DNA of 64,000 bases, from positions 1 through 64,000 of IMG/VR virus record IMGVR_UViG_2974549561_000001; one strand, given 5' to 3'. Both the position numbers and the translations under genes were made by a program. Positions 2,420 to 62,043 of this stretch are shown in pieces. The notes beneath the pieces were generated by a model, which saw nothing but the letters and a program-made list of their open reading frames with translations, ran no database searches and was not told the DNA's origin. How positions within the stretch are numbered: the stretch's first letter is position 1; the number at the start of each line of letters is the position of its first letter. This DNA comes from a virus. Its lineage: Duplodnaviria > Heunggongvirae > Uroviricota > Caudoviricetes.

Positions 2420-2812
2420 ATGTCTGATAAAGTAACAGTAAAGCAAACTATCAACAAAGCGACTTCAATCTACAAAATTGAGCACATCACTGTTGGCAAG
2501 CCAGGATCTGAACAATACCGTCATGCTTTCGAGCTTGCCGATCAGCTTGGTTTAAAACACCCGGATTGCATCGAGCATGTATTTCCGACCTATGCTGATG
2601 AGCAATGTACTCATGTTCTTACCGAAGAGGATTTTTTCAGCACTGAAGAACGAGAAGGCGTTGATCGCTGCATTGGTGTGATTTGTTCTTCGGTAAGTGA
2701 TGAGTTATTCCCTAATGTGCCTGAATATGGTGGTATTGGATACCAGTTCCTGTATGAAGGCGATGAGCTTAAATGCTATGAACATGGTCTTCTTATCGAA
2801 AGCGTAGAATAA
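2420..2812 (+). CDS. hypothetical protein (P1 upfA position)
   Basis: 130-aa ORF immediately upstream of oriR; no family recognised. Confidence 0.5.
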   Translation: MSDKVTVKQTINKATSIYKIEHITVGKPGSEQYRHAFELADQLGLKHPDCIEHVFPTYADEQCTHVLTEEDFFSTEEREGVDRCIGVICSSVSDELFPNVPEYGGIGYQFLYEGDELKCYEHGLLIESVE

Positions 2813-2863
2813 TACGGCTTCCTTCCAACCGGCTTTATTGGCCGGTTTATTCAACTTATCCAC

Positions 2864-2940
2864 AGCATAGATCCAATAAACAGATCCTAAAGAGAACCTA
2901 GGAAGATCCAAAGAAGATCCCGGATCGCTGTAAGCCGCGC
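2864..2940. other. oriR core: DnaA box and five GATC-containing heptamers
   Basis: TTATCCACA at 2864-2872 then AGATCCA/AGATCCT/AGATCCA/AGATCCC/GGATCGC spaced about 10 bp apart, the architecture of P1 oriR. Confidence 0.6.
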
Positions 2941-2964
2941 CATTTCTGGCCTGAAATGGGATCA

Positions 2965-3072
2965 ACATTGACTATACGCGATTTTATGTTGACTGTGCAC
3001 GATTTATTGTTGACTGCACGCGATTTATTGTTGACTATACGCGACAGAAACATTGACTGTACGCGATTTTAG
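2965..3072. repeat. five direct iterons upstream of repA (incC-equivalent)
   Basis: five copies of about 19 bp with core TTGACTRTRCGCGAYWT at about 21-bp spacing; differ from the P1 iteron sequence as I recall it. Confidence 0.7.
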
Positions 3073-3146
3073 AGCCTGACTATTCACAGTTGTTGATAAC
3101 TGCAATCCAGATGACGCCAGGCCGCGCCACATATGGAGAAACCACG

Positions 3147-4031
3147 ATGCCGGAAGAAAATAAAGGCTTCCTTAGCGTTGAAGAAGTTGCTGGAAATACA
3201 GGAGAAATCCACAGCCTGAAACCCAATAACAATAGCACTATACAACCCATCGCTTTGTTGCGCTTAGGTGTGTTTGTGCCAACCTTAAAATCTACCAATG
3301 TGGCACTACGTCGCGGATCGTCAGTTACTACAAACACAACGAACGCAACCGAAGAACTATCAAGCCTCAAAATTGTTGAGCAGGAAGGCTATGAGGGAAT
3401 TGAAATTCATGGTCCACGCCTGGATATGGATACTGATTTTAAGGTGTGGGTGGGCATAACCTCCGCGTTGTTTGACTACGCACCTGATGATGACGGTATA
3501 ATCACCCTGCCATTCTCCGAGTTTGCCGATCGATGCGGCTATCCACGTAAGCGCCTTTCAAAGGCGTTCCGTAAAAGTATTGATGATTCTCTGACACGCA
3601 TTCAGCAGACAGTTGTCAAATTCCGCTTCCCGGCGGCAAAAGGTCATCTCAATAACATTAACGTCAACTTGTTGGCATATAGCAGCCTGAATACCGAGCT
3701 TGATGTTATCGAGATCCAGCCGCAGAAACAGCTATCTGAACTTTACTATGTTGACTATAAGCGAATCCTGAAGCTGAAGATGCTGGATAAACTAGGGCGC
3801 AAAGAGACGGCCAAGGTACTGTATACATTCTTTGAGGCTCTACCCGCCAACCCGGCACCTGTCAGCATTGAGCGCCTTAGAGCGAGGCTTAATCTCAAAT
3901 CATCCGTTAGCGTGCAAAATAGCGTTATCAGAAAAGCCATGAAAGATTTGGAAGCTATTGAATATCTTAAATTTTCAGAGATAAAAAACGGCAGGAAAAT
4001 CGGCTTCCAGATCCATAAGCGCAATCCATAA
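3147..4031 (+). CDS. repA: RepA plasmid replication initiator (P1 RepA family, divergent)
   Basis: flanked by iteron arrays; GPRLDMDTDFKVW block resembles P1 RepA; ATG 3147 after GGAGAAACC chosen over the longer 3090 ORF. Confidence 0.8.
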   Translation: MPEENKGFLSVEEVAGNTGEIHSLKPNNNSTIQPIALLRLGVFVPTLKSTNVALRRGSSVTTNTTNATEELSSLKIVEQEGYEGIEIHGPRLDMDTDFKVWVGITSALFDYAPDDDGIITLPFSEFADRCGYPRKRLSKAFRKSIDDSLTRIQQTVVKFRFPAAKGHLNNINVNLLAYSSLNTELDVIEIQPQKQLSELYYVDYKRILKLKMLDKLGRKETAKVLYTFFEALPANPAPVSIERLRARLNLKSSVSVQNSVIRKAMKDLEAIEYLKFSEIKNGRKIGFQIHKRNP

Positions 4032-4033
4032 TA

Positions 4034-4291
4034 TTGACTATATGCGATAGCGAGAAGTTGACTATAGGCGACATTCGTTGACGCTGGTGGATTTTTGCTG
4101 GCGTCAATATTCTGCAAGTCGCTATTGAGATGGCTTTTAGGGGCATTTCATCGCGTATAGTCAACGTTTCTCCCGACAATATCTTACATAGTCGATCTTT
4201 GGTGGAGTTAAATCGACTACAGTCAACTTTTGACTGTAGTCACATCGCGCATAGTCAACTATTCACATTAACCTTCGCGCATAGTCAACAT
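4034..4291. repeat. iteron array downstream of repA (incA-equivalent)
   Basis: about eight copies of the same TTGACTATA(C/G)GCGA core in both orientations. Confidence 0.65.
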
Positions 4292-4323
4292 TTGCGCGGT
4301 TCTCATCAAGCAGTGGTATTGAT

Positions 4324-5007
4324 ATGCAAGAAGAGAAACAACACTACCTCTACGTTCTGGTGCCAGAGAACGGAGATACTTTTAAAATCGGCATTTCATG
4401 TGGTCCATTGGCACGGTTTAAAGGGCTACAAGTGAGTCCCGATTTTGCGCTTTCACGGGTCTATCGTGGTACGCGTTTGGCAATGGTTAATCTTGAGCGG
4501 GCTTTACACGCAACCTTTTTCCCCTGGAATGCGCCGTGGGAGAAAAGCGTCGGTGGCGGGCATACTGAATGGTTTACACGAGAGTGTCTTGATAAGGTTT
4601 TGGCTCATATCGAATATCTAAATGATATGTGGGGAGGGATTCTCGAGCGCATTAAGTCGAATGATTTACTTCAGCGTCCAGTAGATGCTGCTTGCTCTTT
4701 CGAAAAAGAGCTGGATGTTACTTCTATCGTGACTTTCAAAGATGACGCAGGAATGAGGGACGTGGCTTATGTCTCCATATCTGGCTATGAACCGGACGCG
4801 ATCCGCGCTCAATGTGAATTGCTGAAAGCAATGTTTATGCTTCGGACTAAATATCCCTGGGATACAGGGCGGGTGTGCTTCCCTATGGAAGAGTTAACCG
4901 CCACCATTGATTCCCAGCTTTACCACGATAATCCAGAGAAGTTTTTTAGCCTTTTAGCCGGTAATGGGCTTAACTGTGTGTCCGGGCTGGGGCGAAGTAG
5001 AATCTAA
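4324..5007 (+). CDS. T5orf172/GIY-YIG-like domain protein
   Basis: N-terminal YLYVLV...FKIGIS and HTEWF motifs typical of the T5orf172 domain; sits between incA and parA where I recall no gene in P1. Confidence 0.5.
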   Translation: MQEEKQHYLYVLVPENGDTFKIGISCGPLARFKGLQVSPDFALSRVYRGTRLAMVNLERALHATFFPWNAPWEKSVGGGHTEWFTRECLDKVLAHIEYLNDMWGGILERIKSNDLLQRPVDAACSFEKELDVTSIVTFKDDAGMRDVAYVSISGYEPDAIRAQCELLKAMFMLRTKYPWDTGRVCFPMEELTATIDSQLYHDNPEKFFSLLAGNGLNCVSGLGRSRI

Positions 5008-5140
5008 CATGCCTCGCTCTTCGGTCCCTTCTTTTACGATCGACACGGGTACTTTGAGGCTGAACTTCCGGCGCTTACGCGTGCTATAGATACTATCGAT
5101 TTCGAACGATTATTCGCTGCTCTTAGCAAATAACACTGAT

Positions 5141-5161
5141 GCCCCTGAACGGGGCTTTTTT
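5141..5161 (+). terminator. rho-independent terminator
   Basis: GCCCC-tgaac-GGGGC hairpin followed by TTTTTT. Confidence 0.6.
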
Positions 5162-5250
5162 GTGCCCTCCTTGTAACTCTCAATCGTGCAAAATGAACCA
5201 AACATGCAGAGAATGCTATGTACAAGCATCTACGCATACATTATTATTTT

Positions 5251-5286
5251 ATGCAGCATTTTTAATTAAATTCAAAAATACAGCAT
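5251..5286. promoter_or_regulatory. imperfect inverted repeat upstream of parA (candidate par promoter/operator)
   Basis: ATGCAGCATTTTT ... AAAAATACAGCAT arms in an AT-rich region 16 bp before parA. Confidence 0.3.
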
Positions 5287-5301
5287 AAAGGATGACTTTC
5301 G

Positions 5302-6498
5302 ATGAGTGATTCCAGCCAGCTTCACAAGGTTGCTCAAAGAGCAAATAGAATGCTCAATGTTCTGACTGAACAAGTACAGTTGCAAAAGGATGAGCTACAC
5401 GCGAACGAGTTTTACCAGGTCTATGCGAAAGCGGCACTGGCAAAATTGCCTCTACTGACTCGTGCGAACGTTGACTATGCCGTAAGTGAAATGGAAGAAA
5501 AGGGTTATGTTTTCGATAAACGCCCTGCTGGCTCTTCAATGAAATATGCGATGTCAATTCAGAACATCATTGACATATATGAACATCGCGGAGTGCCAAA
5601 ATACCGGGATCGCTACAGCGAAGCGTATGTGATTTTCATCTCTAATCTTAAAGGCGGTGTGTCAAAAACTGTATCGACGGTTTCTCTGGCGCATGCAATG
5701 CGTGCTCACCCTCATCTTCTGATGGAAGATTTAAGGATTCTGGTTATTGACCTTGATCCGCAATCTTCAGCAACGATGTTTTTAAGCCATAAACACTCTA
5801 TTGGTATCGTAAACGCAACATCTGCACAGGCTATGTTGCAGAATGTAAGCCGTGAAGAGCTGTTAGAGGAGTTTATTGTTCCTTCTGTTGTACCTGGGGT
5901 TGACGTTATGCCTGCGTCGATTGACGATGCCTTTATTGCATCCGATTGGAGAGAGCTGTGCAATGAGCATCTACCGGGTCAGAACATCCATGCAGTCCTG
6001 AAAGAAAATGTGATTGATAAGCTGAAGAGCGATTATGACTTTATCCTCGTTGATAGTGGTCCTCACCTTGACGCCTTCCTGAAAAATGCTTTGGCCTCGG
6101 CCAATATACTGTTTACACCTCTGCCGCCTGCAACGGTTGATTTCCACTCATCGCTTAAATACGTTGCCCGCCTTCCTGAGTTGGTGAAACTCATTTCGGA
6201 TGAAGGCTGCGAGTGTCAGCTTGCAACTAACATTGGTTTTATGTCCAAGTTGAGTAACAAGGCAGACCATAAGTATTGCCATAGCCTGGCTAAAGAAGTG
6301 TTCGGTGGGGATATGCTTGATGTTGTCCTCCCTCGCCTTGACGGTTTTGAACGCTGCGGCGAGTCTTTTGACACTGTTATTTCAGCTAACCCGGCAACGT
6401 ATGTTGGTAGTGCTGATGCATTGAAGAACGCGCGAATTGCTGCGGAAGATTTTGCTAAAGCAGTTTTTGACCGTATTGAATTTATCAGATCTAACTGA
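5302..6498 (+). CDS. parA: ParA partition ATPase (P1 ParA)
   Basis: 398 aa; N-terminus MSDSSQLHKVAQRANRMLNVLTEQ and deviant Walker A KGGVSKT match P1 ParA as I remember it. Confidence 0.95.
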   Translation: MSDSSQLHKVAQRANRMLNVLTEQVQLQKDELHANEFYQVYAKAALAKLPLLTRANVDYAVSEMEEKGYVFDKRPAGSSMKYAMSIQNIIDIYEHRGVPKYRDRYSEAYVIFISNLKGGVSKTVSTVSLAHAMRAHPHLLMEDLRILVIDLDPQSSATMFLSHKHSIGIVNATSAQAMLQNVSREELLEEFIVPSVVPGVDVMPASIDDAFIASDWRELCNEHLPGQNIHAVLKENVIDKLKSDYDFILVDSGPHLDAFLKNALASANILFTPLPPATVDFHSSLKYVARLPELVKLISDEGCECQLATNIGFMSKLSNKADHKYCHSLAKEVFGGDMLDVVLPRLDGFERCGESFDTVISANPATYVGSADALKNARIAAEDFAKAVFDRIEFIRSN

Positions 6499-6514: not shown

Positions 6515-7516
6515 ATGTCAAAGAAAAACAGACCAACAATTGGGCGAACCCTTAATCCTTCAATATTAAGCGGATTTGATAGTTCTTCAGCCTCTGGCGA
6601 TCGAGTCGAGCAGGTATTCAAGTTATCAACTGGTCGCCAGGCCACATTTATTGAAGAGGTAATACCTCCGAACCAGGTAGAAAGCGATACCTTTGTTGAT
6701 CAGCATAACAACGGGCGTGACCAGGCATCTCTTACGCCAAAATCATTAAAAAGTATCCGAAGCACTATTAAGCATCAGCAATTTTACCCTGCAATAGGTG
6801 TTAGACGGGCTACAGGGAAAATTGAAATTTTGGATGGTTCCCGGCGTCGAGCTTCTGCCATCTTAGAGAACGTAGGGTTGCGGGTTTTAGTCACGGACCA
6901 GGAGATCAGCGTTCAGGAAGCGCAAAATTTAGCGAAAGACGTTCAGACAGCATTGCAGCACAGCATTCGAGAAATAGGTCTGCGTTTGATGCGAATGAAA
7001 AATGATGGGATGAGTCAGAAGGATATTGCAGCCAAAGAAGGGCTGTCTCAGGCGAAGGTCACGCGTGCTCTCCAGGCAGCGAGTGCTCCGGAAGAATTAG
7101 TCGCCCTTTTCCCTGTGCAGTCGGAATTAACCTTTTCGGACTACAAAACGCTTTGTGCTGTTGGCGACGAAATGGGGAACAAGAATTTAGAGTTTGATCA
7201 GCTTATTCAAAACATATCCCCGGAAATAAACGACATCTTATCCATTGAAGAAATGGCCGAAGATGAAGTTAAAAATAAAATCCTGCGCTTGATAACAAAG
7301 GAAGCCTCACTACTCACGGATAAAGATTCTAAAGATAAGTCCGTAGTTACTGAATTATGGAAATTTGAGGACAAGGATCGCTTTGCAAGGAAGCGCGTGA
7401 AAGGCCGTGCATTTTCTTATGAGTTTAATCGACTTTCAAAAGAGCTACAGGAAGAACTCGACAGGATGATTGGGCATATCCTTAGAAAGAGCCTCGATAA
7501 AAAGCCGAAGCCTTAA
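6515..7516 (+). CDS. parB: ParB partition protein (P1 ParB)
   Basis: 333 aa immediately after parA; sequence and position match P1 ParB. Confidence 0.95.
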   Translation: MSKKNRPTIGRTLNPSILSGFDSSSASGDRVEQVFKLSTGRQATFIEEVIPPNQVESDTFVDQHNNGRDQASLTPKSLKSIRSTIKHQQFYPAIGVRRATGKIEILDGSRRRASAILENVGLRVLVTDQEISVQEAQNLAKDVQTALQHSIREIGLRLMRMKNDGMSQKDIAAKEGLSQAKVTRALQAASAPEELVALFPVQSELTFSDYKTLCAVGDEMGNKNLEFDQLIQNISPEINDILSIEEMAEDEVKNKILRLITKEASLLTDKDSKDKSVVTELWKFEDKDRFARKRVKGRAFSYEFNRLSKELQEELDRMIGHILRKSLDKKPKP

Positions 7517-7517
7517 A

Positions 7518-7605
7518 CTTTCGCCATTCAAATTTCACTATTAACCTACTGTTTTTAAAGTAAATCCCTCTAAAATTTCAAGGTGAAATCGCCACGATTC
7601 CACCT
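7518..7605. other. parS partition site
   Basis: ATTTCAC heptamer and TCGCCA hexamer boxes flanking an AT-rich IHF-like core, directly after parB. Confidence 0.75.
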
Positions 7606-28513: not shown

Positions 28514-30856
28514 ATGAATGACGTTACAGTTGTTACATCAGTTACTTACCCATCACCCGAGTCGTTGGCTCTGGTGGCTGATGTGCAATACCACGAACCA
28601 TATCTGTCAGCCGCGCTAAACCGAAAATTCAGGGGGATTGTTGACCCGGGATTTTATGCCGGTTTCTTACCTAAGCCTGGCGGTGGGATGAACCTGTTAA
28701 TCACCTCAGTGGATGGTGATAAAACCGCAGGCGCGGCGTCGGTGGATATTGGTGAATTCTACCAGGTAACTATTCAGCAACGTAAGGATATTTCTCTTGC
28801 ACTTAGTGCAGGCAAGAAATATGCAATTGTGCTGAAGGGAAGATACCTCCTTGGAGAAGATACCTATCAGGTGAATACCGCGTCACATATTCATGCGGCT
28901 GAATTTGTTGCCAGAACCTATACCGATTCATATCAGTTAGGAGATGGAGAGCTGCTTGTTTGTACGGTGAATATCCCTGCTGGCGTATCAGCCATTACCC
29001 AGGAGATGATTGATACATCCGAGCGTATTAACCGCACGATCGGCATTGATATTTCAGACTCTGTAACCAGTAGCAGAAGTGATGTTGCTGCAAGTTCGCT
29101 GGCAGTTAAAAAAGCCTACGATCTGGCGAAAAGCAAGTATACGGCGCAGGATGCAAGCACAACGCAAAAGGGATTAGTTCAGCTCAGTAGCGAAACTAAC
29201 AGCGACAGCGAAACAATGGCGGCTACCCCTAAAGCCGTTAAGTCTGTAAAAGATCTTGCTGATACCAAAGCGCCAATAGAAAGCCCGAGTCTGACAGGAA
29301 CGCCAAGCGCGCCGACGGCAGCGCAAGGTACAAACAGCACGCAGATAGCAAATACAGCCTTTGTTAAGGCAGCTATAACTGCACTTATCAACGGTGCACC
29401 TGGCACACTGGATACACTTAAAGAAATAGCTGCTGCGATCAATAACGACCCGAATTTCAGCACAACTATCAACAATGCCCTGGCTCTCAAAGCGCCTTTG
29501 GCAAGCCCTGCATTAACGGGTGTCCCTACTGCGCCGACCGCCGCACAGGGCACAAATAATACGCAGATTGCTACGACCGCTTATGTAAGAGCTGCCATAT
29601 CCGCATTGGTTGGTTCATCACCAGAAGCTCTTGATACCCTGAATGAGCTTGCCGCAGCACTTGGCAATGACCCGAACTTTGCGACAACAATGACAAATGC
29701 GCTGGCAGGCAAACAGCCTCTGGATGCAACTTTAACCGCGCTCGCTGGCCTTGCGACTGGTGCAAACAAACTGCCTTATTTCACTGGTAAGGATACGGTA
29801 GCTCAGACTGATTTAACGTCAGTCGGTCGCGATATTCTGGCTAAAACAAGCACACTGGCCGTTATCCAATACCTTGGTTTAGGCGAAACGATAAATCTGG
29901 CTGCGGGCGCAGTCCAGAAAACTGGCGATGAGATGAACGGGAAGTTAACCCTGCCACAGACATCTTCCTTCGGCGTGAATACTAATAACACACTGGGCGG
30001 TAGTTCCATCGCTATCGGTGATAACGATACCGGGCTCAAAGGGAACGGCGACGGTAATCTGGCATTTATGGCTAACAACGTGCTGGCAGGATATTTTAAT
30101 GAAAATGAATTGCAGCACAGTAAAAAGATGCTGACTAAAAATTTTCAGGCTCTTGTTGATAATAACTGGCCGGAGGGGGCGGGGGGATTTTCTGGTCAGT
30201 TAAGCAGTGAAGCACCGTTTAGTGTACCAATGGTTCACCGTCAGAATAATGATAATAATTTTTTCCCGCTCCTGAAAGGAAAGGTCTCACTGGAGTCTGG
30301 CTATCCTGTAGCCGCCTCTTTCGGAATATTAACTAGTGGGAATACTAATTTCCCACAAATTGCAATTCACGCGAAAACAGACTTTGATGTTAACGATAAA
30401 ATATGGGTATTTGATGTTGCAACCGGAGAATTTCGCGCGCCGGGCAGGATTACAGCTACAGAAATTTTATTGAGCGGTAAAAGCCGTGTTGCTCCTGATG
30501 GTAATTTATATGGTGATGTGTGGGGTGGCTGGCTGAATGACTTCCTTAATAACAATTACAACCGCAAAAATACTGCCAGTCTGGGTGATTATGGATGGGT
30601 TCGTGACGAAAGCACCGGGTTTATAATGCAATGGGGGACACTTGGTAGCTCAAACGGAACCTACAATTTCCCGCGAGAGTTTCCGGCATCCTGCTTTGCT
30701 GTATTTGTCACCAACAATAATCAGCAGGGGGGGGCGGTGGATAACGCGTTTGGATATCCGGTGAGTAAAAGCCAGTTTTTTGCCGCTACAAAAGATTCAT
30801 CGAGCAGTAATCATATAAATAACTACCCTGTAGCCTGGTTTGCGATTGGGAGATAA
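28514..30856 (+). CDS. S: tail fibre protein S (constant part plus currently expressed variable part)
   Basis: N-terminal about 450 aa ([14 protein letters not shown]...) matches P1 S as I recall it; C-terminal part after cixL is a different variable domain. Confidence 0.9.
29282..29722 (+). repeat. tandem intragenic repeat in S
   Basis: two about 220-bp units encoding [26 protein letters not shown](F/Y)V and DTLxExAAAxxNDPNF(S/A)TT. Confidence 0.6.
29862..29887. other. cixL crossover site
   Basis: TTATCCAATACC-TT-GGTTTAGGCGAA, gix/cix-like 12-2-12 structure at the constant/variable boundary of S. Confidence 0.55.
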
Positions 30857-30857
30857 A

Positions 30858-31265
30858 ATGAGCGATTATTATTACAGCTTTAAAGAGAAAGGTTTTTTCT
30901 ACAAGCCGGATACCGAATCGGGAGATTGCCCGACTGATCTAATTCCTCTGACTGATGAACACTACCATGAACTTATGCAGGGTCAGGTGGACGGAAAATA
31001 TATTGAGCACAGGAAAGGAGGCCCAGTACTGGTTGAACATCGCGAATATACGCCTGAAGAACTGGTTGCACAGGCTGAATCCAGAAAAGCGGAACTCCTT
31101 GCCGGAGCAGAGTCAGTCATTGCGCCACTGGCACGGGCAGTAAAACTAAAAATTGCCACAGATGAAGAGATTAAACGGCTGGACGCCTGGGAGCTCTACA
31201 GTGTACTGGTAAACCGGGTGGATACCTCAAATCCTGACTGGCCGGATAAGCCAGCCAGCCAGTAG
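30858..31265 (+). CDS. U: tail fibre assembly protein U
   Basis: 135 aa after S, GGGAGA SD; Tfa-like. Confidence 0.65.
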
Positions 31266-31268
31266 TCG

Positions 31269-31856
31269 TTATTGTGGTAATTCAGGCCACCTGATTTCCG
31301 TGAAGGTGGCTGAGTCTTTCACGCCGCTCAAATCCAGCGTTTTAAGCGCCCTGATATACGCCATCCATTTAGTCAGGCTGGCCTTATCGTCGTCACTTAT
31401 TTCACCCAACGCCAGTTCGGTTCGCCAGTCGGCAATGGCGCTGTTAGCGGCATCCAGTAGTTTCTGTCGGGTGGTTTCGGCCTTAGCCTGATAATCCACC
31501 GGAACGGGTAAAACCTTACCATCCCTGTACAACCATGAGCCATCACCACGGCAATCATCAGGACAGTCAGCAGCGTCTATTTCCGCAACAGACATATTAA
31601 CCGGCCACAACATTGATACAGAATATGTGTTGCCACGTTGCGGGACTGGCTTATTAACAACACCCCAGATAACCCCTTCATGGTCGTACATTATTTTTGC
31701 AGTATCATCAGAAAATAATGACTGACACTCATACCAGTCCTGTCCGTCGTCTGACTTCAGAAAATATGCACCTATATTTATTTCGGCCTGAGTTTTCCCC
31801 CTGTTTACAGGCGCGTCAGTCAGTCTGAAATTTTTGATATTCTGATATTTTTTCAT
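31269..31856 (-). CDS. alternative tail fibre assembly protein U'
   Basis: convergent with U inside the invertible segment. Confidence 0.6.
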   Translation of the reverse strand: MKKYQNIKNFRLTDAPVNRGKTQAEINIGAYFLKSDDGQDWYECQSLFSDDTAKIMYDHEGVIWGVVNKPVPQRGNTYSVSMLWPVNMSVAEIDAADCPDDCRGDGSWLYRDGKVLPVPVDYQAKAETTRQKLLDAANSAIADWRTELALGEISDDDKASLTKWMAYIRALKTLDLSGVKDSATFTEIRWPELPQ

Positions 31857-33098
31857 TATACCGTTCCCCCTTGTACGGTATACCACTGATTCCCGACTCG
31901 TTTTTGCAAAGGCGCATAATTAATACCATCAATATTTTCGCCCTGATAATCTTTCCAGACGGAGGTAACTACATATCCGGGAGTGTTAGGCCATGACCCT
32001 GCATTGTTCCAGGTAGTCACTGATGTGCCGGCCCCTAACTGAACATCTAAGACGAGATTATTATTAATCCAGGTACTTAACCAGCCATTTCCCCATAGCG
32101 AACCAAAGATATCACCGTTATTCTGATAGATGGCCCCGCCTGCACGCAGTACGTTAGCGGTGATATCGCCATTGACCGTAAACAGGACTGAACCATCAGG
32201 GTTTCGCTGGCTGTATAACTGCCATCCCTGATCATCATCCAGTTCAATTACAGTGGGCCTGTTTGCGTCGCCCCATAATTTAAACGTGGCTGTCATTGTC
32301 GAATTATTATTACTCGTTAGTGACAGTTTTTTTTCTTTGCCTGCGCGAATAGCTCCCAGAACCATCATTTCACCGGGAGCGACACGAACGGTGTGCTGGT
32401 TGTTCGCGTATGTATCCAGTATCCCGTCACCGTTCTGTTTAAAACCGGTATCGTTATCACCGAGTACAATTGAATTACCGCCCAGTGCATTGTCAGTACC
32501 AATGCTTAACGGACCGTTTAGCTGTCCCCCTGTAATCGGCAATGCACCCACATCACCGGCTGTTGGTTTCATCAGACTACTGTAAATTGTATATGTCTGA
32601 CCGCTGGTTGAGTTTCCCGGCTGTACTGATGAATATTCAGGCGTACTGTGCAACGTGACATTTGCATTACCGGTGTAGTCATATTGCGCAATTAACCAGT
32701 ACGCATACTGGCCGATATTAATATAAATATCGTAGGTGTCGCCTGATGTATTAACCCATGCGACCTCGTTAGCCGCAGCAGGCGAGCGTCTCCACAACGT
32801 GGCAGTTATTCCAACAGGTGAGCCATTACCGGCACGCAATACCAGTTCGCTGATTGCCGCCTGTTCAGGTGAACCAGCGTTAAACCCCGCCCCACCGTAC
32901 AGTTTAATCACCGCTGTTGATGTAGCCTGCGGCATTACAACCGTGGCGATTTTGAACCAGCCTGATTCACCAAGTGTAATGGTAGTCGATGTTACCGCGC
33001 CGATAGTTCTCGCAAATTGTTTTTTGTCCGGAATATCGCCGCCATTCTGCGATTTTTGCAGTGCACCCGCAGCGAGATTTATCGTTTCTCCTAAACCA
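31856..33098 (-). other. silent alternative tail-fibre variable segment Sv'
   Basis: lacks its own N-terminus; encodes ALGGNSIVLGDNDTGFKQNGDGILD... resembling the P1 S C-terminal part; would fuse to Sc after inversion. Confidence 0.7.
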
Positions 33099-33111
33099 AG
33101 GTTTTTGCGAA
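33086..33111. other. cixR crossover site
   Basis: reverse complement TTCGCAAAAACC-TT-GGTTTAGGAGAA. Confidence 0.55.
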
Positions 33112-33175
33112 TTGCCTCCGTGTCGTCTGAACGATATTTTTTCCCGCTTTTAGCAACAATCGCTGGTGATAAAGT

Positions 33176-33757
33176 ATGCAATATGGTTATGCGAGAGTGT
33201 CAACTTTTGACCAAAATTTAGAATTACAACTGGAGGCGCTCAGGAGTTCAGGATGTGACCGGATTTTTGAAGATAAAATATCCGGTGCGAAGTCAAAACG
33301 ACCAGGGCTTGATAAGCTGATAAAAGTGTTGCGGCCTGGCGATACGGTTGTTGTCTGGAAACTGGACCGAATGGGACGTTCTCTGATTCATCTTGTTGAG
33401 TTACTGAACTTTTTTTTATCAAACAACATTGAGTTTATTTCGGTTACAGAAGGGATAAAAATTAGCACATCAATTGGCCGCTTTGCTTACACGATGCTGA
33501 GTGCGGCTGCAGAGCTGGAGCGGGAAAATATTATTGAAAGAACGCGTGCAGGATTGGCTGTGGCAAGGGCTAACGGCAGGATAGGAGGACGCCGTTCAAA
33601 ACTGACACCAGAGCAATGGGAGCAGGCCGGACGTTTATTAGCGCAAGGAGTCCCCCGCAAGCAGGTCGCATTGATCTACGATGTGGCTCTGTCAACTTTG
33701 TATAAAAAACACCCCGCCAAACGAACGTGCATAGAAAGTAACGCTCAAACCAATTGA
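33176..33757 (+). CDS. serine DNA invertase (Hin/Gin/Cin/Pin family)
   Basis: 193 aa; catalytic YARVST N-terminus; C-terminus RLLAQGVPRKQVALIYDVALSTLYKKHPAKR resembles Gin/Pin; 65 bp from cixR. Confidence 0.85.
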   Translation: MQYGYARVSTFDQNLELQLEALRSSGCDRIFEDKISGAKSKRPGLDKLIKVLRPGDTVVVWKLDRMGRSLIHLVELLNFFLSNNIEFISVTEGIKISTSIGRFAYTMLSAAAELERENIIERTRAGLAVARANGRIGGRRSKLTPEQWEQAGRLLAQGVPRKQVALIYDVALSTLYKKHPAKRTCIESNAQTN

Positions 33758-33888
33758 ATCGGTCGGCAACACAGATTGATTGTGCCCCAATAGCCACACT
33801 CAACCCACGATGTTTTTTTCGATAGTGGCGAATTGATGTAAAGGAGGTGAGATGAAATCAATTCGCTGTAAGACCTCATTTTCCAACA

Positions 33889-37869: not shown

Positions 37870-38231
37870 CACTATCAGCTATTGAGTTAATGGATCTCAG
37901 CGATAAGTTGGATGCTCTGATGTCCAAAGCGGCTACCGCGCGTGGCATGGAGTTGCTGGATATCAGCGATGAAATTGACCAGATCATGCAACAGATGGGG
38001 TACGGTGTGTCCGGCGGCAGTAGTGGCGAGGAAAAACAACCTTCGGTACATGATGGCGTGCCAAAACTGGTTGCTGATTTCCTGGCTGATAAATTCGTCG
38101 ATCAGAGCACCGATGCATTTATCGGTACCTTGCAGGATTTGAGTCAATATGTTGGCACATACATCGACCTGGACCAGGTTAAACAGCACACGGCGGCATG
38201 GATAGCCGCCAACATTAAAGAGGCAGCGTGA
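37866..38231 (+). CDS. ddrA: DdrA
   Basis: 121 aa, ATGA overlap with darA. Confidence 0.55.
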   Translation: MTLSAIELMDLSDKLDALMSKAATARGMELLDISDEIDQIMQQMGYGVSGGSSGEEKQPSVHDGVPKLVADFLADKFVDQSTDAFIGTLQDLSQYVGTYIDLDQVKQHTAAWIAANIKEAA

Positions 38232-39569
38232 CATCCTCCACGCCCTTCGGGGTGTGGATTCCTGCTATGTTCAGGCTGTCGCCTGAATCATTTCGGAGGG
38301 TTCCTGCTTCAACGGGCGGTCTGACTGCACCATCCCTCCACAGGCAAGCACGGCGTGCCCCGCCGCTAAAATGTTACGAGCGCCGTTTACATCGGCGTTC
38401 GCTGTATATCCACAATCCCGACACACGAATTTACTTTGTGACAGGCGGTTTTCTTTCGCTGTATGGCCACAGCACGCGCAACGCTGGCTTGTGTACGCTG
38501 GCGGCACTGCCAGTACCTGACCGCCACGCCAGAGCTGCTTGTACTCAAGCTGGCGGCGCATTTCATACCAGCCCTGATCCAGTATCGAACGGTTTAAACC
38601 TGATTTTGCCCGGACATTGCGCCCCGGCTGACTTATCGTACCCGCCGCTGACTTTGACATGTATTTAACCTTCAAATCCTCAATGACAATCATTGCGTGG
38701 TTTTTGCTGATGATCGTTGTGATTTTATGAAGGTAGTCTCTGCGGATGTTTGCGATACGAAAATGCAGTCGCTGTATTTTGCGTTTCTGCATCTGCCAGT
38801 TGTTGCTGAATCTGACCTTGCGGCTTAACTGTCGCTGAAGTCTCGCCAGCTTCTTCTGGTTTTTCTGAAAACTATTTACAGGTTCAAAGACTGTGCCATC
38901 TGACAGCGTGGCGAGTTTAGCCACGCCAGCATCCAGTCCGACCATTGATGCTGAAGGGTGAACAGGAGTGGATACCTCTCTTTCTGTCTGAATACTGATG
39001 TACCACTTACCGCAGGACTGGCTGACAGTGACATTTTTCACAACACCCGTGACCTGACGGCTATTCCGGTAGCGCATCCAGCCAAGTTTCGGCAGAAAAA
39101 TACGGCTGTATTCCTGATCGAGCTTAACGCCCTGCGGGTAGCGGAATGCATCATTCTGTCCCCGCTTTTTGAATCGGGGAAAAGCAGCCCGATTCTGGAA
39201 GAAGTTTTTGTAAGCCCGCTCAAGGTCTTTCAGTGACTGTTGCAATGGCTGTGAGGGAGAATCTTTAAGCCATTCGGTTTCAGTGTCTTTTTTCCACTCA
39301 ACCAACCAGGAAGCCATTTTCGTGTAAGGGATGTATTTTTTACCGGCCTCATGATTCTCATTCTGAAGCGCCAGAGCACGATTGAAAACGAAACGACATG
39401 CGCCTGCGAAGCGCCTCATTTCACGCTCCTGTTGACCATCTGGTCTTAATCGGAATTTGAATGACACCTGTTGTTTCATGTCACTATTTTAAGCAAAAAT
39501 AGCCGGGAGGAAAACTGTGCCTTATATCCCCACTATGAGGCGCGTGGGGAGCGGCACATTGGATAAGGC
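38232..39569 (-). mobile_element. IS200/IS605-family tnpB-only insertion element
   Basis: single TnpB ORF, no tnpA; subterminal hairpins at both ends; TTAC next to the left end (minus-strand reading); occupies the ddrA-ddrB junction. Confidence 0.7.
38271..39479 (-). CDS. tnpB: TnpB (OrfB) RNA-guided nuclease family
   Basis: 402 aa; N-terminal OrfB_IS605 region and C-terminal zinc finger CACCGH...CRDCG with RuvC-like segment. Confidence 0.85.
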
Positions 39570-56388: not shown

Positions 56389-57519
56389 TTACACAGTATC
56401 AATGTGTCTGCTAAGGAATCTCCCGAACTGATTTGTTGACCCAAAATAGTTAGGATAAGCCTTTTTAAGAGATTTAATGTTGTTAGTGGCAAGCAGCACC
56501 GCAATTAATACTTCAGGATCCGCATCATCCTTATTAAGTTCCTGGAGGGCTTGTTCCGATTCTTTTTTCCTAAAAGGTTTCACAGAAACAAGAAACTTTC
56601 CAGTATCCTTGCCATTTTTTGTTATGGCGTTTCTCATCCTCACCAAAAAGAATCCATTATGGTTTTTGGGCAGGCTTTTCTTTAGGTTTGCATCTGATGT
56701 CAGCTTCATTGCAAATGTATATGTACTTAATTTTGAGCGAACAGATAAAGCCTCCTCCAATGTTTTAAGCTCTGTTTGATAATTTTTGATGGTTTCATCA
56801 TCAAGAATACAGGCACCTTCATCATGAGCAACTAGGCATCCAGAAAGATAAAAAAATCTTCTCCACTCAGGGTGACCTTCATTAGAAGTTTTCAGCTTAA
56901 TATTTTCAAGTGTATCTATTATCTCCAGACTTGTTGCCCAAGCATGTTGGAGTTCTGTTCTTAGTTGTACTTCGATTTTAGTTTTACTCCACGGATTGTT
57001 ACCGTTTTCTTCATCAAAACAACTATATGCAAGGTGAATGCCACTATATCCGCTTGGCTTTGGAGTTAAATAGTCATATTCCTTTAAGATTTTATGCTTG
57101 GAGCGACTTTTAACTAGTCGGTCTTTTAGTTTCTTTAGTTGTTCGATGTTTCTAACTATAGCTCTACATCCGCCAATATCCTGCATTCTAGTAAGGGCTA
57201 TTGCATTATTTGTTGCGCCGCCGTCAAGACTTGGACGCTCCAGTTTATCAATTATTGTGCTAAGTCTTTTTAGGCGTCTTGCAACAATAATCTTATTCTC
57301 TTTATCAACTTTTTTTGCAGCCCTATCAAGATGATTTTTCATTAGCATCAATGGATATAAATGAAGCTCGCGGAAATTTTGAATCATTTTAATTGCTTCT
57401 TCTCGCTCTGCGCCCTCACAACCATGTCTAATTTTTCTGGCTGCTTTTTCTATTTGAGATTTCGAATATTTAAGCTCGCATTTTTGGCTTTGATATACTT
57501 CACTGCCCATTACTAACAT
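56389..57519 (-). CDS. CapRel-like fused toxin-antitoxin (RelA/SpoT toxSAS domain plus C-terminal regulatory domain)
   Basis: DIGGCRAIV, YSGIHLAY and EVQLRTELQHAWA motifs of the RelA/SpoT synthetase fold in the N-terminal two-thirds; about 130-aa C-terminal extension; start codon ambiguous (TTG 57528, ATG 57519/57510). Confidence 0.6.
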   Translation of the reverse strand: MLVMGSEVYQSQKCELKYSKSQIEKAARKIRHGCEGAEREEAIKMIQNFRELHLYPLMLMKNHLDRAAKKVDKENKIIVARRLKRLSTIIDKLERPSLDGGATNNAIALTRMQDIGGCRAIVRNIEQLKKLKDRLVKSRSKHKILKEYDYLTPKPSGYSGIHLAYSCFDEENGNNPWSKTKIEVQLRTELQHAWATSLEIIDTLENIKLKTSNEGHPEWRRFFYLSGCLVAHDEGACILDDETIKNYQTELKTLEEALSVRSKLSTYTFAMKLTSDANLKKSLPKNHNGFFLVRMRNAITKNGKDTGKFLVSVKPFRKKESEQALQELNKDDADPEVLIAVLLATNNIKSLKKAYPNYFGSTNQFGRFLSRHIDTV

Positions 57520-57622
57520 CCAGTTCAAATGATTAATGTGTTGTTACATATAATAACAAATCAAGCTAGAAATCAATGGGTATGAAAATGAAACATACCC
57601 ATAATGTTACCTAACGTAACTA

Positions 57623-58479: not shown

Positions 58480-58517
58480 GGGGAGCCCGCAGAATTCGGA
58501 AAAAATCGTACGCTAAG
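58480..58517. repeat. Tn1721-type 38-bp terminal inverted repeat
   Basis: GGGGAGCCCGCAGAATTCGGAAAAAATCGTACGCTAAG read directly; tnpA stop lies inside it. Confidence 0.85.
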
Positions 58518-61479
58518 GTTTTCCGGGCATCCGTAAGGGCCGAAACTTCCCGTCTTCCAGTCTGCGGCTCTGCCGCCAGACGTAATCGCCGGTTAGGTTG
58601 ATGTGCTCCCAGCCCAGCGGCGACAGGAATTGCAGCAGCTCGCCGTCCACCGGCTTGCCGGCCTCGACCAACCCCTGGGTGGCGCGTTCCAGGTACACCG
58701 TGTTCCACAGCACGATAGCCGCCGTCACCAGGTTGAGGCCGCTGGCCCGGTAGCGCTGCTGCTCGAAGCTCCGATCCCTGATTTCCCCAAGGCGGTTGAA
58801 GAACACCGCCCTGGCCAGCGAGTTGCGCGCCTCACCTTTGTTCAGGCCGGCATGCACGCGGCGGCGCAGTTCAACACTTTGCAGCCAGTCCAGGATGAAC
58901 AGCGTGCGCTCGATCCGGCCCAGCTCGCGCAGGGCCACGGCCAGTCCGTTCTGGCGCGGGTAGCTGCCGAGCTTGCGCAGCATCAGCGAGGCGGTGACGG
59001 TGCCCTGCTTGATCGAGCTGGCCAGGCGCAGGATGTCGTCCCAGTGGGCACGCACGTGCTTGATGTTCAGGGTGCCGCCGATCAGCGGGCGCAACGTCGG
59101 GTAGGCTTGCACGCCCTGCGGCACGTACAGCTTGGTTTCGCCGAGGTCGCGGATGCGCGGCGCGAAGCGGAAGCCTAGCAGGTGCATCAGGGCAAAGACG
59201 TGATCGGTGAAGCCGGCCGTGTCGGTGTAGTGCTCCTCGATCCGCAGGTCGGACTCGTGGTACAGCAGGCCGTCGAGCACATAGGTGGAATCGCGGACGC
59301 CGACATTCACCACGCGGGTGCTGAACGGCGCGTACTGGTCGGAGATATGGGTATAGAACAGCCGTCCCGGCTCGCTACCGTACTTCGGGTTGACGTGCCC
59401 GGTGCTCTCGCCCCGGCCACCCGCGCGGAAGCGCTGGCCATCGGAGGATGAGGTCGTGCCGTCGCCCCAGTGGGCGGCAAAGGCGTGGCGATACTGGTGG
59501 TTGACCAGCTCGGCCAAGGCCGCCGAATAGGTTTCGTCGCGGATGTGCCAGGCTTGCAGCCAGGACAGCTTGGCGTAGGTCAGGCCGGGGCTCGACTCGG
59601 CCATCTTGGTCAGCCCGAGGTTGATCGCATCACCGAGGATTGCGGACAGCAGCAACGTCCTGTCTTTGGCCTCGGCCCCGTCCTTCAAGTGGGTGAAGTG
59701 GCGGCTGAAGCCCGTCCAGTCGTCCACGTCCATCAGCAGTTCGGTGATCTTGATGCGCGGCAGTAACTGGCTGGTTTGGTCGATCAGCGCCTGCGCCCGA
59801 TCCGGCACCGCCGCATCCAGCGGGGTGATTTTCAGCCCTGACTCGGTGAGGATGGCATCGGGCAGCTCGTTGTCCTTGGCCAGGCGGGTGACGGTGGCCA
59901 ACTGCTCGTCCAGCAGCTGCAAACGCTCTTCCAGGTACTGGTCGCTGTTCGGGTTGATCGCCAGGGGCAGGGCCTGCTCGCGCTTGAGTGCGGCGAACTT
60001 CTCGGCCGGCAGCAGGTAGTCGTCGAAGTCGCGGAACTGCCGCGAGCCCTTGACCCAGATGTCGCCGGAGCGCAGGGCGTTCTTCAGCTCGGACAGGGCG
60101 CAGATTTCGTAGAATTTCCGGTCGAGGCCTTCCGGGGTGATCACCAGCGGCTTCCAGCGCGGCTTGATGAAGGCCGTGGGTGCATCGGCCGGCACCTTGC
60201 GCAGGTTGTCGGCGTTCATCTCACGCAGGGTCTGCACGGCTGCCAGCACGCCTTGCGCGGCCGGCGCGGCGCGCAGTTCCAGCACCTCCAGCAAGGCCGG
60301 CGTGTAACGGCGCAGGGTGGCGAAGTTCTCGCCGACCAGGTGCAGGTGGTCGAAGCCTTCCGGCCGGGCCAGCAGCTCGGCCTCGCTGACGCTCTCGGTG
60401 AACTCGTCCCAGGGAATCACCGCCTCGATGGCGGCATAGGGGTCGCTGCCGCTTTCCTTCGCTTCCAGCAGCGCCTGGCCGATCCTGGAGTACAGGCGCA
60501 CCTTGTCGTTGATCGCCTTGCCCTGCTTCTGGAACTGCTGCTGATGCTTGTGCTTCGCGCCGCTGAACAGCTTGACCAGGATGCGGTCATGCAGATCGAC
60601 CAGCTCATCGATCACGGTCGCGGTGCTCTCCAGCACCACGGCGGCCAGGGTCGCGTAGCGGCGCTGCGGCTCGAACTTACCGAGGTCTTTGGGCGTCATC
60701 TGCCCACCCTCGCGGGCCAGCTTGAGCAGGCGGTTCTGGTGGATGTGCCGGCCCAGGCCTTCGGGCAAGTCCACCAACTGAAATGTCTTCAGCCGCTCGA
60801 TGTGTTCCAGCATGTGCCGAGAGTTGGGTTTCAGCGGTGCCTGGCGCAGCCAGGTCAACCAGGTGATGCTGCTGCCGGCCTTGAGCTTCAACAGCTCGTC
60901 CAGCTTGGCCCGATGCGAGTCCGTGAGTGGTTCGACCAGGGCGCGGTAGACCCGCCGATTGGCTCGCGCAATGGCTTCCGAGCAGGCCCGGTCAATCACG
61001 CTCAGCGCCGGCAGGATGCGTCGTTTCTGCCGTAGGCTCTCCAGGGCCTGACCGGCCAGCAGCAAGCCTTTGTCGGTCTGCTGGGCCAGCTCGGTTAGCT
61101 CGCGCACCAGGGCGCGGAAGTCGGACAGGCCGAACGGGGCCAGTTGCAGGTAGGTGCGCAGTTCCTGGGCATGCTCGCGACGGGTCACGTCGCGCTCGCC
61201 GTACTTTGCCCAGCTCGCCGGCTCGGCCTGGACTTGCTTCGCCACCCACAGGATGACCGGCTCGGGCAGCTCGCTGTCGGTTCCCAGCGCGTAACCGGGG
61301 TAGCGCAGCAGGCAGAGCTGCACGGCGAAGCCGAGGCGGTTGGCGTCGCCGCGTCGCTGGCGGATCAGCGACAGGTCGGAGTCGTTGAAGGTGTAGTAGC
61401 GGATCAGGTCATCCTGGCTTTCCGGCAGCGCAAGCAGGGTGTCCCGCTCCGTGGCCGAGAGGATCAAGCGACGCGGCAT
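58513..61479 (-). CDS. tnpA: Tn3-family transposase TnpA
   Basis: 988 aa; closely resembles Tn21/Tn1721 TnpA from memory. Confidence 0.95.
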
Positions 61480-61482
61480 GTG

Positions 61483-62043
61483 TCAGTCGTCCGTGCGGAG
61501 GTACTGGTAGAGGGTTTCCCGGCTGATGTTGAACTCGCGGGCAAGCTGCGCCTTGGGCTCGCCGGCCGTCGCTCGCTGCCGCAGGGTAGCAGCCTGCTCA
61601 TCGGACAGGGCTTTCTTGCGGCCCCGGTACGCGCCACGCTGCTTGGCCAAGGCGATGCCCTCACGCTGCCGCTCGCGGATCAGGGCGCGCTCGAACTCAG
61701 CGAAGGCCCCCATCACCGACAGCATCAGGTTGGCCATCGGCGAGTCCTCGCCAGTGAACACCAGGCCCTCCTTCAGGAACTCGATGCGCACGCCGCGCTG
61801 AGTCAGCTTCTGTACCAAGCGACGCAGGTCATCGAGGTTGCGGGCCAGCCGATCCATGCTATGCACCACCACTGTATCGCCTTCGCGGACGAAGCTCAGC
61901 AGCGCTTCGAGCTGGGGGCGCTGGGTGTCCTTGCCCGATGCCTTGTCGGTGAACACCTTGCTCACCTGGGTTTGTTCCAGCTGGCGTTCCGGGTTCTGGT
62001 CAAAGCTGCTGACCCGGACGTAGCCGATGCGGTGCCCCTGCAC
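61483..62043 (-). CDS. tnpR: serine resolvase TnpR
   Basis: 186 aa; MQGHRIGYVRVSSFDQNPERQ N-terminus typical of Tn1721/Tn21 resolvases. Confidence 0.95.
   Translation of the reverse strand: MQGHRIGYVRVSSFDQNPERQLEQTQVSKVFTDKASGKDTQRPQLEALLSFVREGDTVVVHSMDRLARNLDDLRRLVQKLTQRGVRIEFLKEGLVFTGEDSPMANLMLSVMGAFAEFERALIRERQREGIALAKQRGAYRGRKKALSDEQAATLRQRATAGEPKAQLAREFNISRETLYQYLRTDD

What the first reader, a model, noticed from the sequence alone, without database searches (positions are those of the whole stretch)
2864..4291. P1-type origin architecture with a different iteron sequence
The DnaA box, five GATC heptamers, five upstream iterons, repA and a downstream control array reproduce the P1 oriR/incC/repA/incA layout. 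The iteron core (TTGACTATACGCGATTT) and much of RepA differ from P1 as I recall it, while ParA/ParB look P1-identical. That points to a mosaic of replication and partition modules, which would change incompatibility with true P1.
Basis: partly seen in the sequence, partly recalled or inferred. Interest (0 to 1): 0.45.

Follow-up and report, generated by a model that had tools for sequence, protein, structure and literature searches.

The report
Known p0111 replicon in P1-like plasmid
This is the plasmid replication origin of a P1-like phage-plasmid in which the P1 initiator gene and its binding repeats are replaced by the already documented "p0111" version, next to unchanged P1 partition genes; it is real but ordinary.

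Summary
One exact DnaA box (2856-2864) and five GATC heptamers (2869-2928) precede five direct iterons (2966-3071, spaced 21/21/21/22 bp). Then come repA (3147-4031) and a two-orientation iteron array (4032-4290).

The iteron is TTGACTRTRCGCGA. All 12 close copies in the 64 kb lie in this locus, and no P1-type iteron is present. RepA is about 40% identical to P1/P7 RepA. ParA and ParB are 99.7% identical to P1, and parS is P1-type.

The swapped block is about 2847-5202. Its DnaA/GATC half is 86.5% identical to a relative in a non-P1 phage-plasmid but 72% to P1, so it belongs to the incoming block. The block also carries a GIY-YIG/T5orf172 gene (4324-5007, here cut short by a stop codon).

The block is 98.8% identical to pO111_2, the PlasmidFinder "p0111" reference (RepA 293/294). 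About 400 PLSDB plasmids and 415 of 5426 complete E. coli genomes carry it. Published work already describes IncY versus p0111 replicon types in P1-like phage-plasmids.

Replicon-based incompatibility with P1 should be lost, but partition-based incompatibility should remain. Only 2 genomes carry both types, against about 28 expected. Verdict: already known; low interest.

The parts
2847..2855 (+). Left junction of the swapped block, and a degenerate DnaA box (TTATTCAAC) in tandem with the exact box
   Evidence: Upstream of 2846 the window is 93.9% identical to P1. From 2847 to 2950 it is 72% identical to P1 and 86.5% to the non-P1 relative L004.
2856..2864 (+). Exact DnaA box TTATCCACA
   Evidence: One of two exact TTATNCACA sites in 64 kb. 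It aligns with the second of P1's two annotated tandem DnaA boxes.
2869..2928 (+). Five GATC heptamers (AGATCCA 2869, AGATCCT 2882, AGATCCA 2904, AGATCCC 2915, GGATCGC 2922), plus a degenerate AGAACCT at 2893
   Evidence: Densest GATC cluster in the window. Homologous to the five annotated Dam sites of P1 oriR.
2966..3071 (+). Five direct origin iterons (incC-like) with cores at 2968, 2989, 3010, 3031 and 3053, spaced 21/21/21/22 bp
   Evidence: P1 incC iterons have the same spacing (5838, 5859, 5880, 5901, 5923 in L001).
3076..3099 (.). Degenerate sixth iteron-like copy (CTGACTATTCACAG), and two one-mismatch DnaA boxes (3080-3088 on +, 3091-3099 on -)
   Evidence: and direct reading. The position matches the right-hand DnaA-box-like sequences (TTATCACCA, CTATCCACA) read in the P1 oriR sequence; they are not annotated in the record. 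Weak matches, so functional status is inferred.
3147..4031 (+). repA, 294-aa iteron-binding initiator (p0111 type)
   Evidence: ORF. RepA is 100% identical to JL22 and 99.7% to RCS47, and 293/294 to pO111_2. It is 41% identical to P1 RepA, E 2e-71. Pfam Rep3_C passes its cutoff and Rep3_N falls 0.4 bit short. The AF2 model matches RctB, RepE, pi, pPS10 RepA and TrfA.
3749..3769 (+). Iteron copy inside the repA coding sequence (TTGACTATAAGCGA, codons V-D-Y-K-R)
   Evidence: One mismatch to the pattern; 22.6 bits in a matrix that includes this copy. The same sequence sits at the same offset (602 nt from the ATG) in the 85%-identical RepA relative L004. Function unknown.
4032..4290 (.). incA-like control array. 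+ copies at 4032-4052 and 4056-4076, with a weak one at 4076-4096. - copies at 4146-4166, weak 4177-4197, 4208-4228, 4240-4260 and 4270-4290 (spacing 31/31/32/30 bp)
   Evidence: The array starts at the repA stop codon, as P1 incA copy 9 does. P1 and P7 incA have 3 + copies and 6 - copies, the latter about 31 bp apart (strand column of the P7 table; P1 iteron sequences). The two weak copies are called by phasing only.
4078..4107 (.). Inverted repeat TTGACGC...GCGTCAA inside the array
   Evidence: Direct reading. A TTGACGCTGG copy is also present in L004. Role unknown.
4324..5007 (+). GIY-YIG/T5orf172 gene that travels with the replicon block; here 227 aa because of a premature stop (full length 269 aa, frame runs to 5133)
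   Evidence: Pfam T5orf172 and phrog_2876. Stop at codon 228 relative to RCS47; pO111_2 has an independent stop at codon 112. The segment is in 401 PLSDB records against 399 for the replicon, with nearly the same genus counts.
5141..5165 (+). Terminator-like hairpin GCCCCTGAACGGGGC followed by a T run, just after the full-length GIY-YIG frame
5200..5203 (.). Right junction of the swapped block; from 5203 the par promoter/operator region is identical to P1
5302..7516 (+). parA (5302-6498) and parB (6515-7516), P1 type
   Evidence: ParA is 99.7% identical to P1 and 57% to P7. ParB is 99.7% to P1 and 40% to P7. Pfam domains.
7521..7603 (+). parS (incB determinant), P1 type with three small differences, including boxA4 ATTTCAC to ATTCCAC
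   Evidence: One search compared with the P1 annotation. Both TCGCCA boxB hexamers are kept.

Best explanation
The locus is the plasmid-prophage replicon of a P1-like phage-plasmid, in its p0111 form. It consists of a P1-family origin (DnaA box, five Dam/GATC heptamers, five iterons), a RepA initiator of the Rep_3 (WH1-WH2) fold, and a downstream iteron array.

The likely mechanism is taken by analogy with P1 and is inferred, not shown. RepA monomers bind the five origin iterons. Together with DnaA they open the adjacent GATC-heptamer region, whose full Dam methylation is required and whose hemimethylated state is sequestered by SeqA. RepA bound to the iterons represses its own promoter. The downstream array titrates RepA and pairs with the origin ('handcuffing') to hold copy number near one.

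A block of about 2.36 kb (2847-5202) replaces the 1.6-kb P1/IncY block between the upfA terminator and the par promoter. It holds the origin, repA, the control array and a GIY-YIG/T5orf172 gene. The P1 parABS system is left intact. Because iterons and RepA differ completely from P1, replicon-based (incA/incC) incompatibility with P1 should be lost, while partition-based (incB) incompatibility should persist.
For: Anatomy and statistics.

Iteron spacing in the origin (21/21/21/22 bp) is the same as in P1, and the minus-strand downstream copies have the same phasing of about 31 bp.

RepA is homologous to P1 RepA (41%, E 2e-71). Its predicted fold matches solved iteron initiators: RctB, RepE, pi, pPS10 RepA and TrfA.

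Block boundaries: flanks are 94-99% identical to P1, and blastn aligns nothing to P1 between 2951 and 5199. A RepA relative (85% aa) in a different phage-plasmid (NZ_CP085065) sits among tail genes without par. It carries the same DnaA/GATC/5-iteron/repA/array unit with a variant iteron, TTGACTATGTGCGA.

Identity with p0111: 98.84% over 2501 bp to pO111_2, and RepA 293/294.

The replicon is evidently in use. It is found in 399 PLSDB plasmids and 10 phage records at over 95% identity, and in 415 of 5426 complete E. coli genomes, 460 of 468 places being on plasmids. JL22, with an identical RepA, is reported to lysogenise (PMC9603915).
Against: No experiment on this replicon was found; every mechanistic step is transferred from P1. 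No convincing sigma-70 promoter for repA was found within or after the iterons (and manual inspection). Rep3_N falls just below the Pfam cutoff (22.0 against 22.4 bits). The RepA model is of only moderate confidence (mean pLDDT 69.5, residues 1-71 poor). Two of the eight proposed downstream copies are no better than background by score. Only 64 kb of the element was seen, so a second replicon outside the window cannot be excluded.
Confidence: 0.88

Rival explanations
1. The swap does not make the element compatible with P1 in practice. The shared P1 parS/ParAB (incB), and probably shared immunity, still exclude co-residence, so the change of replicon has little effect on coexistence.
For: ParA and ParB are 99.7% identical to P1 and parS keeps both boxB hexamers. 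By inclusion-exclusion, 415 genomes carry p0111, 361 carry IncY and 774 carry either. So only 2 genomes carry both, against about 27.6 expected if independent, and no single record carries both.
Against: Two genomes do carry both types, so co-residence is possible. Genome collections are not independent samples, and lineage structure could produce the deficit. PMC11165635 suggests the two types could in theory be compatible. The immunity regions were not compared.
Confidence: 0.55
2. The region diverged in place from a P1-type replicon by ordinary mutation, rather than being exchanged as a block.
For: The architecture is the same, and the DnaA/GATC half is still 72% identical to P1.
Against: Divergence is sharply bounded. 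Flanks are 94-99% identical, against about 40% amino-acid identity for RepA and unrelated iterons. The same unit occurs in a non-P1 context. About 17 switches of type were inferred on the Salmonella P1-like tree (PMC11165635).
Confidence: 0.02
3. The locus is a non-functional relic, and plasmid maintenance depends on another replicon elsewhere on the element.
For: Only 64 kb of the element is visible. A Tn3-family transposon sits at the window end.
Against: repA is intact and 99-100% conserved across hundreds of plasmids of about 90-100 kb. All 12 iterons are conserved. No IncY iterons are present in the window.
Confidence: 0.03

Closest known systems
p0111 replicon type of P1-like phage-plasmids (pO111_2 NC_013370/AP010962; RCS47; JL22; phi456)
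   Same: The same block: 98.8% DNA identity over 2501 bp to pO111_2, RepA 293/294; 99.9% to JL22 and 97.3% to RCS47. Same position between upfA and parA, with the same GIY-YIG/T5orf172 gene.
   Different: Only point differences. The GIY-YIG gene has a stop at codon 228 here, is intact in RCS47, and has a stop at codon 112 in pO111_2.
P1/P7 plasmid replicon (IncY): oriR-incC-repA-incA
   Same: The order of parts, five GATC sites, five origin iterons at 21/21/21/22 bp, a control array starting at the repA stop with minus-strand copies about 31 bp apart, and a homologous RepA.
   Different: The iteron sequence is unrelated (TTGACTRTRCGCGA against GATGTGTGCTGGAGGGAAA). RepA is only about 40% identical. 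There is one exact DnaA box instead of two. The window has 6 strong downstream copies (8 with weak ones) against 9, and its plus-strand copies are spaced 24/20 bp against 31/41. It has an extra iteron inside repA and an extra gene before parA.
Phage P7
   Same: P7 is the classic precedent for rep and par being separate modules. It has the P1 (IncY) replicon but a different par system (RepA hit rows for P1 and P7 are equivalent).
   Different: The window is the converse case: P1 par (99.7%) with a non-P1 replicon. P7 ParA and ParB are only 57% and 40% identical to the window's.
RepFIB-type / SSU5-type RepB-family initiators of enterobacterial plasmids
   Same: The same protein family. They are the nearest relatives outside the window's own cluster, at 44-49% identity, which is closer than P1 RepA.
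   Different: There are few intermediates. The RepA cluster is isolated: 394 PLSDB records at 99% or more, 4 records between 80 and 99%, and then below 60%. Their iterons were not compared here, except for a Proteus relative (53%) whose repeats differ.

Membership tests
P1-family iteron replicon (oriR/incC-repA-incA architecture) | DnaA box(es) at the outer edge of the origin | tested here: met
   Exact TTATCCACA at 2856-2864 with a degenerate tandem copy; it aligns with the annotated P1 DnaA site.
P1-family iteron replicon (oriR/incC-repA-incA architecture) | Cluster of five GATC-containing heptamers between the DnaA box and the iterons | tested here: met
   Five GATC in 2870-2926, unique in the window; homologous to P1 Dam sites 1-5.
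P1-family iteron replicon (oriR/incC-repA-incA architecture) | Five direct iterons on two-helical-turn spacing immediately upstream of repA | tested here: met
   Spacing 21/21/21/22 bp, the same as P1.
P1-family iteron replicon (oriR/incC-repA-incA architecture) | Initiator homologous to P1 RepA with the WH1-WH2 (Rep_3) fold | tested here: met
   BLASTP 41%, E 2e-71. Rep3_C is above its cutoff and Rep3_N is 0.4 bit below. Foldseek matches RctB, RepE, pi, pPS10 RepA and TrfA with probability 1.0.
P1-family iteron replicon (oriR/incC-repA-incA architecture) | Second iteron array after repA, in both orientations, starting at the stop codon | tested here: met
   2 (+1 weak) plus-strand and 4 (+1 weak) minus-strand copies in 4032-4290. 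P1/P7 have 3 plus and 6 minus.
P1-family iteron replicon (oriR/incC-repA-incA architecture) | repA promoter embedded in the origin iterons (autoregulation) | tested here: inconclusive
   No hit with 9 or more of 12 matches on the + strand. Every iteron starts with TTGACT, and the best candidate is TTGACT at 3010 plus GACTAT at 3033 (8 of 12), found by eye.
P1-family iteron replicon (oriR/incC-repA-incA architecture) | Replication dependent on RepA, DnaA, Dam and DnaK/J; copy control by handcuffing | not testable with these tools
   Needs experiments.
IncY (P1/P7) replicon type | P1 19-bp iteron GATGTGTGCTGGAGGGAAA | tested here: not met
   0 matches with up to 3 mismatches in 64 kb.
IncY (P1/P7) replicon type | repA near-identical to P1 K02380 repA | tested here: not met
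   39.9-41% amino-acid identity. There is no megablast hit to reference P1 or P7 (NC_005856, AF234172/3, NC_050152); the three hit records labelled 'P1' carry this p0111-type RepA.
p0111 replicon type (PlasmidFinder reference AP010962 = pO111_2) | Rep gene at high nucleotide identity over its full length to the pO111_2 rep gene | tested here: met
   98.98% over 885 nt, RepA 293/294. The role of AP010962 as reference is taken from PMC11165635.
P1-type partition system (incB specificity) | ParA/ParB of P1 rather than P7 type, and parS with P1 boxB TCGCCA | tested here: met
   99.7% and 99.7% to P1, against 57% and 40% to P7. parS differs at three small sites, none in boxB.

The most novel reading that the evidence does not exclude
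The GIY-YIG/T5orf172 gene that almost always accompanies the p0111 replicon block may be, or have been, a homing-type nuclease. By cutting the IncY allele between upfA and parA, it could drive repeated replacement of the P1 replicon by the p0111 block. The independent premature stops seen here and in pO111_2 would then be the decay expected after such a gene becomes fixed.
Probability: 0.06. Interest if true: 0.6.

Novelty: already known. Interest (0 to 1): 0.15.

Why it matters
P1-like phage-plasmids spread resistance and virulence genes, and their replicon type (IncY or p0111) is used to detect and classify them. This window is one more p0111-type member, which adds nothing categorical.

Three small points go beyond what I found in the searchable literature:
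- a base-level map of the p0111 origin (iteron consensus, spacing, control array, block junctions);
- the observation that the host-factor half of the origin (DnaA box and GATC heptamers) stays recognisably conserved while the RepA/iteron specificity half is unrelated;
- a count showing that IncY and p0111 types almost never share an E. coli genome, although their replicons differ.

Tried and rejected
- The first blastn placed the left breakpoint at 2950/2951, inside the origin. I rejected this after a six-way alignment showed that 2847-2950 groups with the non-P1 relative (86.5%) rather than with P1 (72%).
- NCBIfam gave no hit for RepA, P1 RepA or the GIY-YIG protein.
- A sequence search of the PDB gave nothing meaningful for RepA, so I used a structure prediction and Foldseek instead.
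- The promoter scan found no convincing repA promoter.
- Accession AP010962 is not in the collections; the RefSeq twin NC_013370 was used.
- PADLOC gave no hit for the GIY-YIG protein.
- Literature searches for an iteron description of p0111 found none.
- The weak iteron copies at 4076 and 4177 cannot be told from background by score; I keep them only because of their phasing.

Full report
**What is in the sequence.**
- An exact DnaA box, TTATCCACA, lies at 2856-2864. It is one of only two exact TTATNCACA sites in the 64 kb. A degenerate tandem copy precedes it.
- Five GATC heptamers follow at 2869, 2882, 2904, 2915 and 2922. This is the only place in the window with four or more GATC in 60 bp.
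- Five direct repeats have cores at 2968, 2989, 3010, 3031 and 3053.
- A 294-aa ORF follows, with a GGAG ribosome-binding site (3147-4031).
- Directly after its stop codon comes a second repeat array. It has two strong plus-strand copies and four strong minus-strand copies (4032-4290).

The pattern TTGACTRTRCGCGA with up to two mismatches occurs 12 times, and all 12 lie within 2968-4288. Shuffles give 1.4 in the whole window. A weight matrix built from these 12 copies scores them at 21.6-28.2 bits. Nothing else in the window exceeds 10.4. One of the 12 lies inside repA (3751-3764).

**Comparison with P1.**
I fetched the annotated P1 and P7 records.
- P1 incC iterons start at 5838, 5859, 5880, 5901 and 5923 of locus L001. 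That is spacing 21/21/21/22 bp, the same as here.
- P1 incA begins at the last base of repA. It has three plus-strand and six minus-strand copies, the latter about 31 bp apart.
- In the window the minus-strand copies sit at 4146, (4177, weak), 4208, 4240 and 4270, which is 31/31/32/30 bp.
- The plus-strand copies are closer together (24 and 20 bp) than in P1 (31 and 41 bp).

The iteron sequences are unrelated. No P1 iteron occurs within three mismatches. RepA is 39.9-41% identical to P1/P7 RepA. ParA and ParB match P1 at 397/398 and 332/333 residues, but match P7 at only 57% and 40%. parS keeps both TCGCCA boxB hexamers.

**Where the block begins and ends.**
blastn first suggested 2950/2951 and 5199/5200. 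Aligning the window with P1, P7, RCS47 and two relatives moves the left junction to about 2847, just after the upfA terminator hairpin. Upstream of that point the window is 93.9% identical to P1. The DnaA/GATC stretch 2847-2950 is 72% identical to P1 but 86.5% identical to L004.

L004 carries a RepA that is 85% identical. It lies in a different phage-plasmid, NZ_CP085065, among tail genes and without an adjacent par system. It has the same unit: a DnaA box, GATC heptamers, five iterons at 21/21/21/22 bp, repA with the internal iteron at the same offset, and a two-orientation array. Its iteron is a variant, TTGACTATGTGCGA.

So the whole origin belongs to the exchanged block, not only the iterons. 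The host-factor half of the origin is conserved across both replicon types, while the RepA/iteron half is not. The right junction is at about 5200-5203. From there the par promoter/operator region is identical to P1.

The block also carries a GIY-YIG/T5orf172 gene (4324-5007) and a terminator-like hairpin (5141-5155).

**What RepA is.**
Pfam gives Rep3_C above its cutoff and Rep3_N just below it. PHROGs places the protein in phrog_775. An AlphaFold model built from a 30-sequence alignment has mean pLDDT 69.5. The core (residues 90-290) is good and the N-terminal 70 residues are poor. Its top Foldseek matches in the PDB are iteron-binding initiators: RctB domains 2-3, RepE, pi, the pPS10 RepA WH1 domain and TrfA.

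Outside its own tight cluster, the nearest proteins are RepFIB/SSU5-type RepB-family initiators at 44-53% identity.

**It is the known p0111 replicon.**
- The 1.5-kb locus is over 95% identical in 10 phage records, including JL22 (99.9%), phi456 and RCS47. It is also found in 399 PLSDB plasmids, mostly non-mobilizable Escherichia and Salmonella plasmids. Reference P1 and P7 are absent from these hits.
- Against pO111_2 (NC_013370 = AP010962), window 2800-5300 is 98.84% identical, the rep gene is 98.98% identical, and RepA matches at 293/294 residues. PMC11165635 uses AP010962 as the p0111 rep-gene reference.
- PMC9603915 states that in JL22 'repA' (p0111) and an unknown gene gp57' replace repA (IncY). 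It also reports that 24 of 55 P1-like phage-plasmids are of the p0111 type.
- PMC11165635 reports 132 p0111 and 94 IncY P1-like elements in Salmonella, and infers about 17 switches of type along the tree.
- A 2025 preprint (10.1101/2025.09.12.675607) screens for both types routinely.

I found no paper in the searchable library that describes the p0111 iterons. Subscription journals are not covered, so this absence is weak evidence.

**Mechanism.**
Nothing here is experimental. By homology of every part with P1, the likely mechanism is as follows.
- RepA monomers bind the five origin iterons.
- DnaA binds the flanking box or boxes.
- The GATC-heptamer region opens. It must be fully Dam-methylated, and SeqA sequesters it when it is hemimethylated.
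- RepA represses its own promoter.
- The downstream array titrates RepA and handcuffs the origin.

This picture rests on established knowledge of P1 (work of Abeles, Austin, Chattoraj, Wickner and Lobocka), which I recall from memory, and on the P1 annotation. I could not locate a convincing repA promoter. Each iteron begins with the near-consensus -35 hexamer TTGACT, and the best -10 candidate is weak.

**Consequence for incompatibility.**
The replicon determinants (the incA/incC equivalents) differ completely. Replicon-based incompatibility with P1 should therefore be absent.

The incB determinant, parS with P1-type ParAB, is retained. Partition-mediated incompatibility is therefore expected to persist; this is inference from established P1 biology.

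As an in-silico check I counted complete E. coli genomes. 415 of 5426 carry the p0111 locus, 361 carry the P1/IncY locus, and 774 carry either. Two genomes therefore carry both, against about 27.6 expected under independence (Poisson P about 4e-10). No single record carries both (415 + 362 = 777 records). Population structure was not corrected for, so this is suggestive only. It fits continued mutual exclusion through par, immunity or both, with rare exceptions.

**The accompanying GIY-YIG gene.**
The 900-bp segment that holds it is present in 401 PLSDB records, with nearly the same genus counts as the replicon. The protein family is tiny: one 269-aa cluster, its fragments, and a single 44% relative. 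It has no PADLOC match.

The window allele has a stop at codon 228, and pO111_2 has an independent stop at codon 112. The relative in NZ_CP085065 lacks the gene, so replication does not require it. A homing or exclusion role is possible but unsupported.

**Verdict.**
The feature is a routine member of a replicon type that is already described and very common. Interest is low.

Noticed in passing
window 4324-5007 (frame continues to 5133): The GIY-YIG/T5orf172 gene linked to the replicon has a premature stop (227 aa against 269 aa in RCS47). pO111_2 has a different premature stop at codon 112. The family is almost confined to this block.
   Followed up: partly
window 3749-3769: A near-perfect iteron lies inside the repA coding sequence (codons VDYKR). 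It is conserved at the same offset in the 85%-identical relative L004. Whether it binds RepA is unknown.
   Followed up: partly
window 4078-4107: Inverted repeat TTGACGC...GCGTCAA, built from half-iterons, lies between the plus- and minus-strand groups of the control array. A similar copy is present in L004.
   Followed up: no
window 56389-57528 (-): A RelA/SpoT-domain protein (378 aa) occupies the place where P1 has res-mod. It matches the PADLOC candidate defence family PDC-S33 at E 8e-87.
   Followed up: partly
window 38228-39562: An IS200/IS605-type TnpB gene (38271-39479, minus strand; OrfB_IS605 plus Cas12f1-like TNB domains) is inserted at the P1 27545/27546 junction.
   Followed up: partly
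window 58482-64000: A non-P1 segment holds a Tn3-family transposase (58513-61479) and resolvase (61483-62043), then a PAS-domain ORF (62353-62982) and a TonB-dependent-receptor fragment (62957-63982).
   Followed up: partly
window 18360-19735 and 29888-33880: Two further stretches have no megablast match to P1, at the positions of the sim region and the tail-fibre/C-segment region.
   Followed up: no
window 7521-7603: parS differs from P1 at three small sites, including boxA4 ATTTCAC to ATTCCAC and two changes in the IHF/spacer part.
   Followed up: no
L006 3300-5950 (Proteus contig; RepA 53% identical): This relative has eleven tandem 43-bp repeats directly after its rep gene, and a 353-bp duplication of the region upstream of it. 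Its repeat sequence is different.
   Followed up: no
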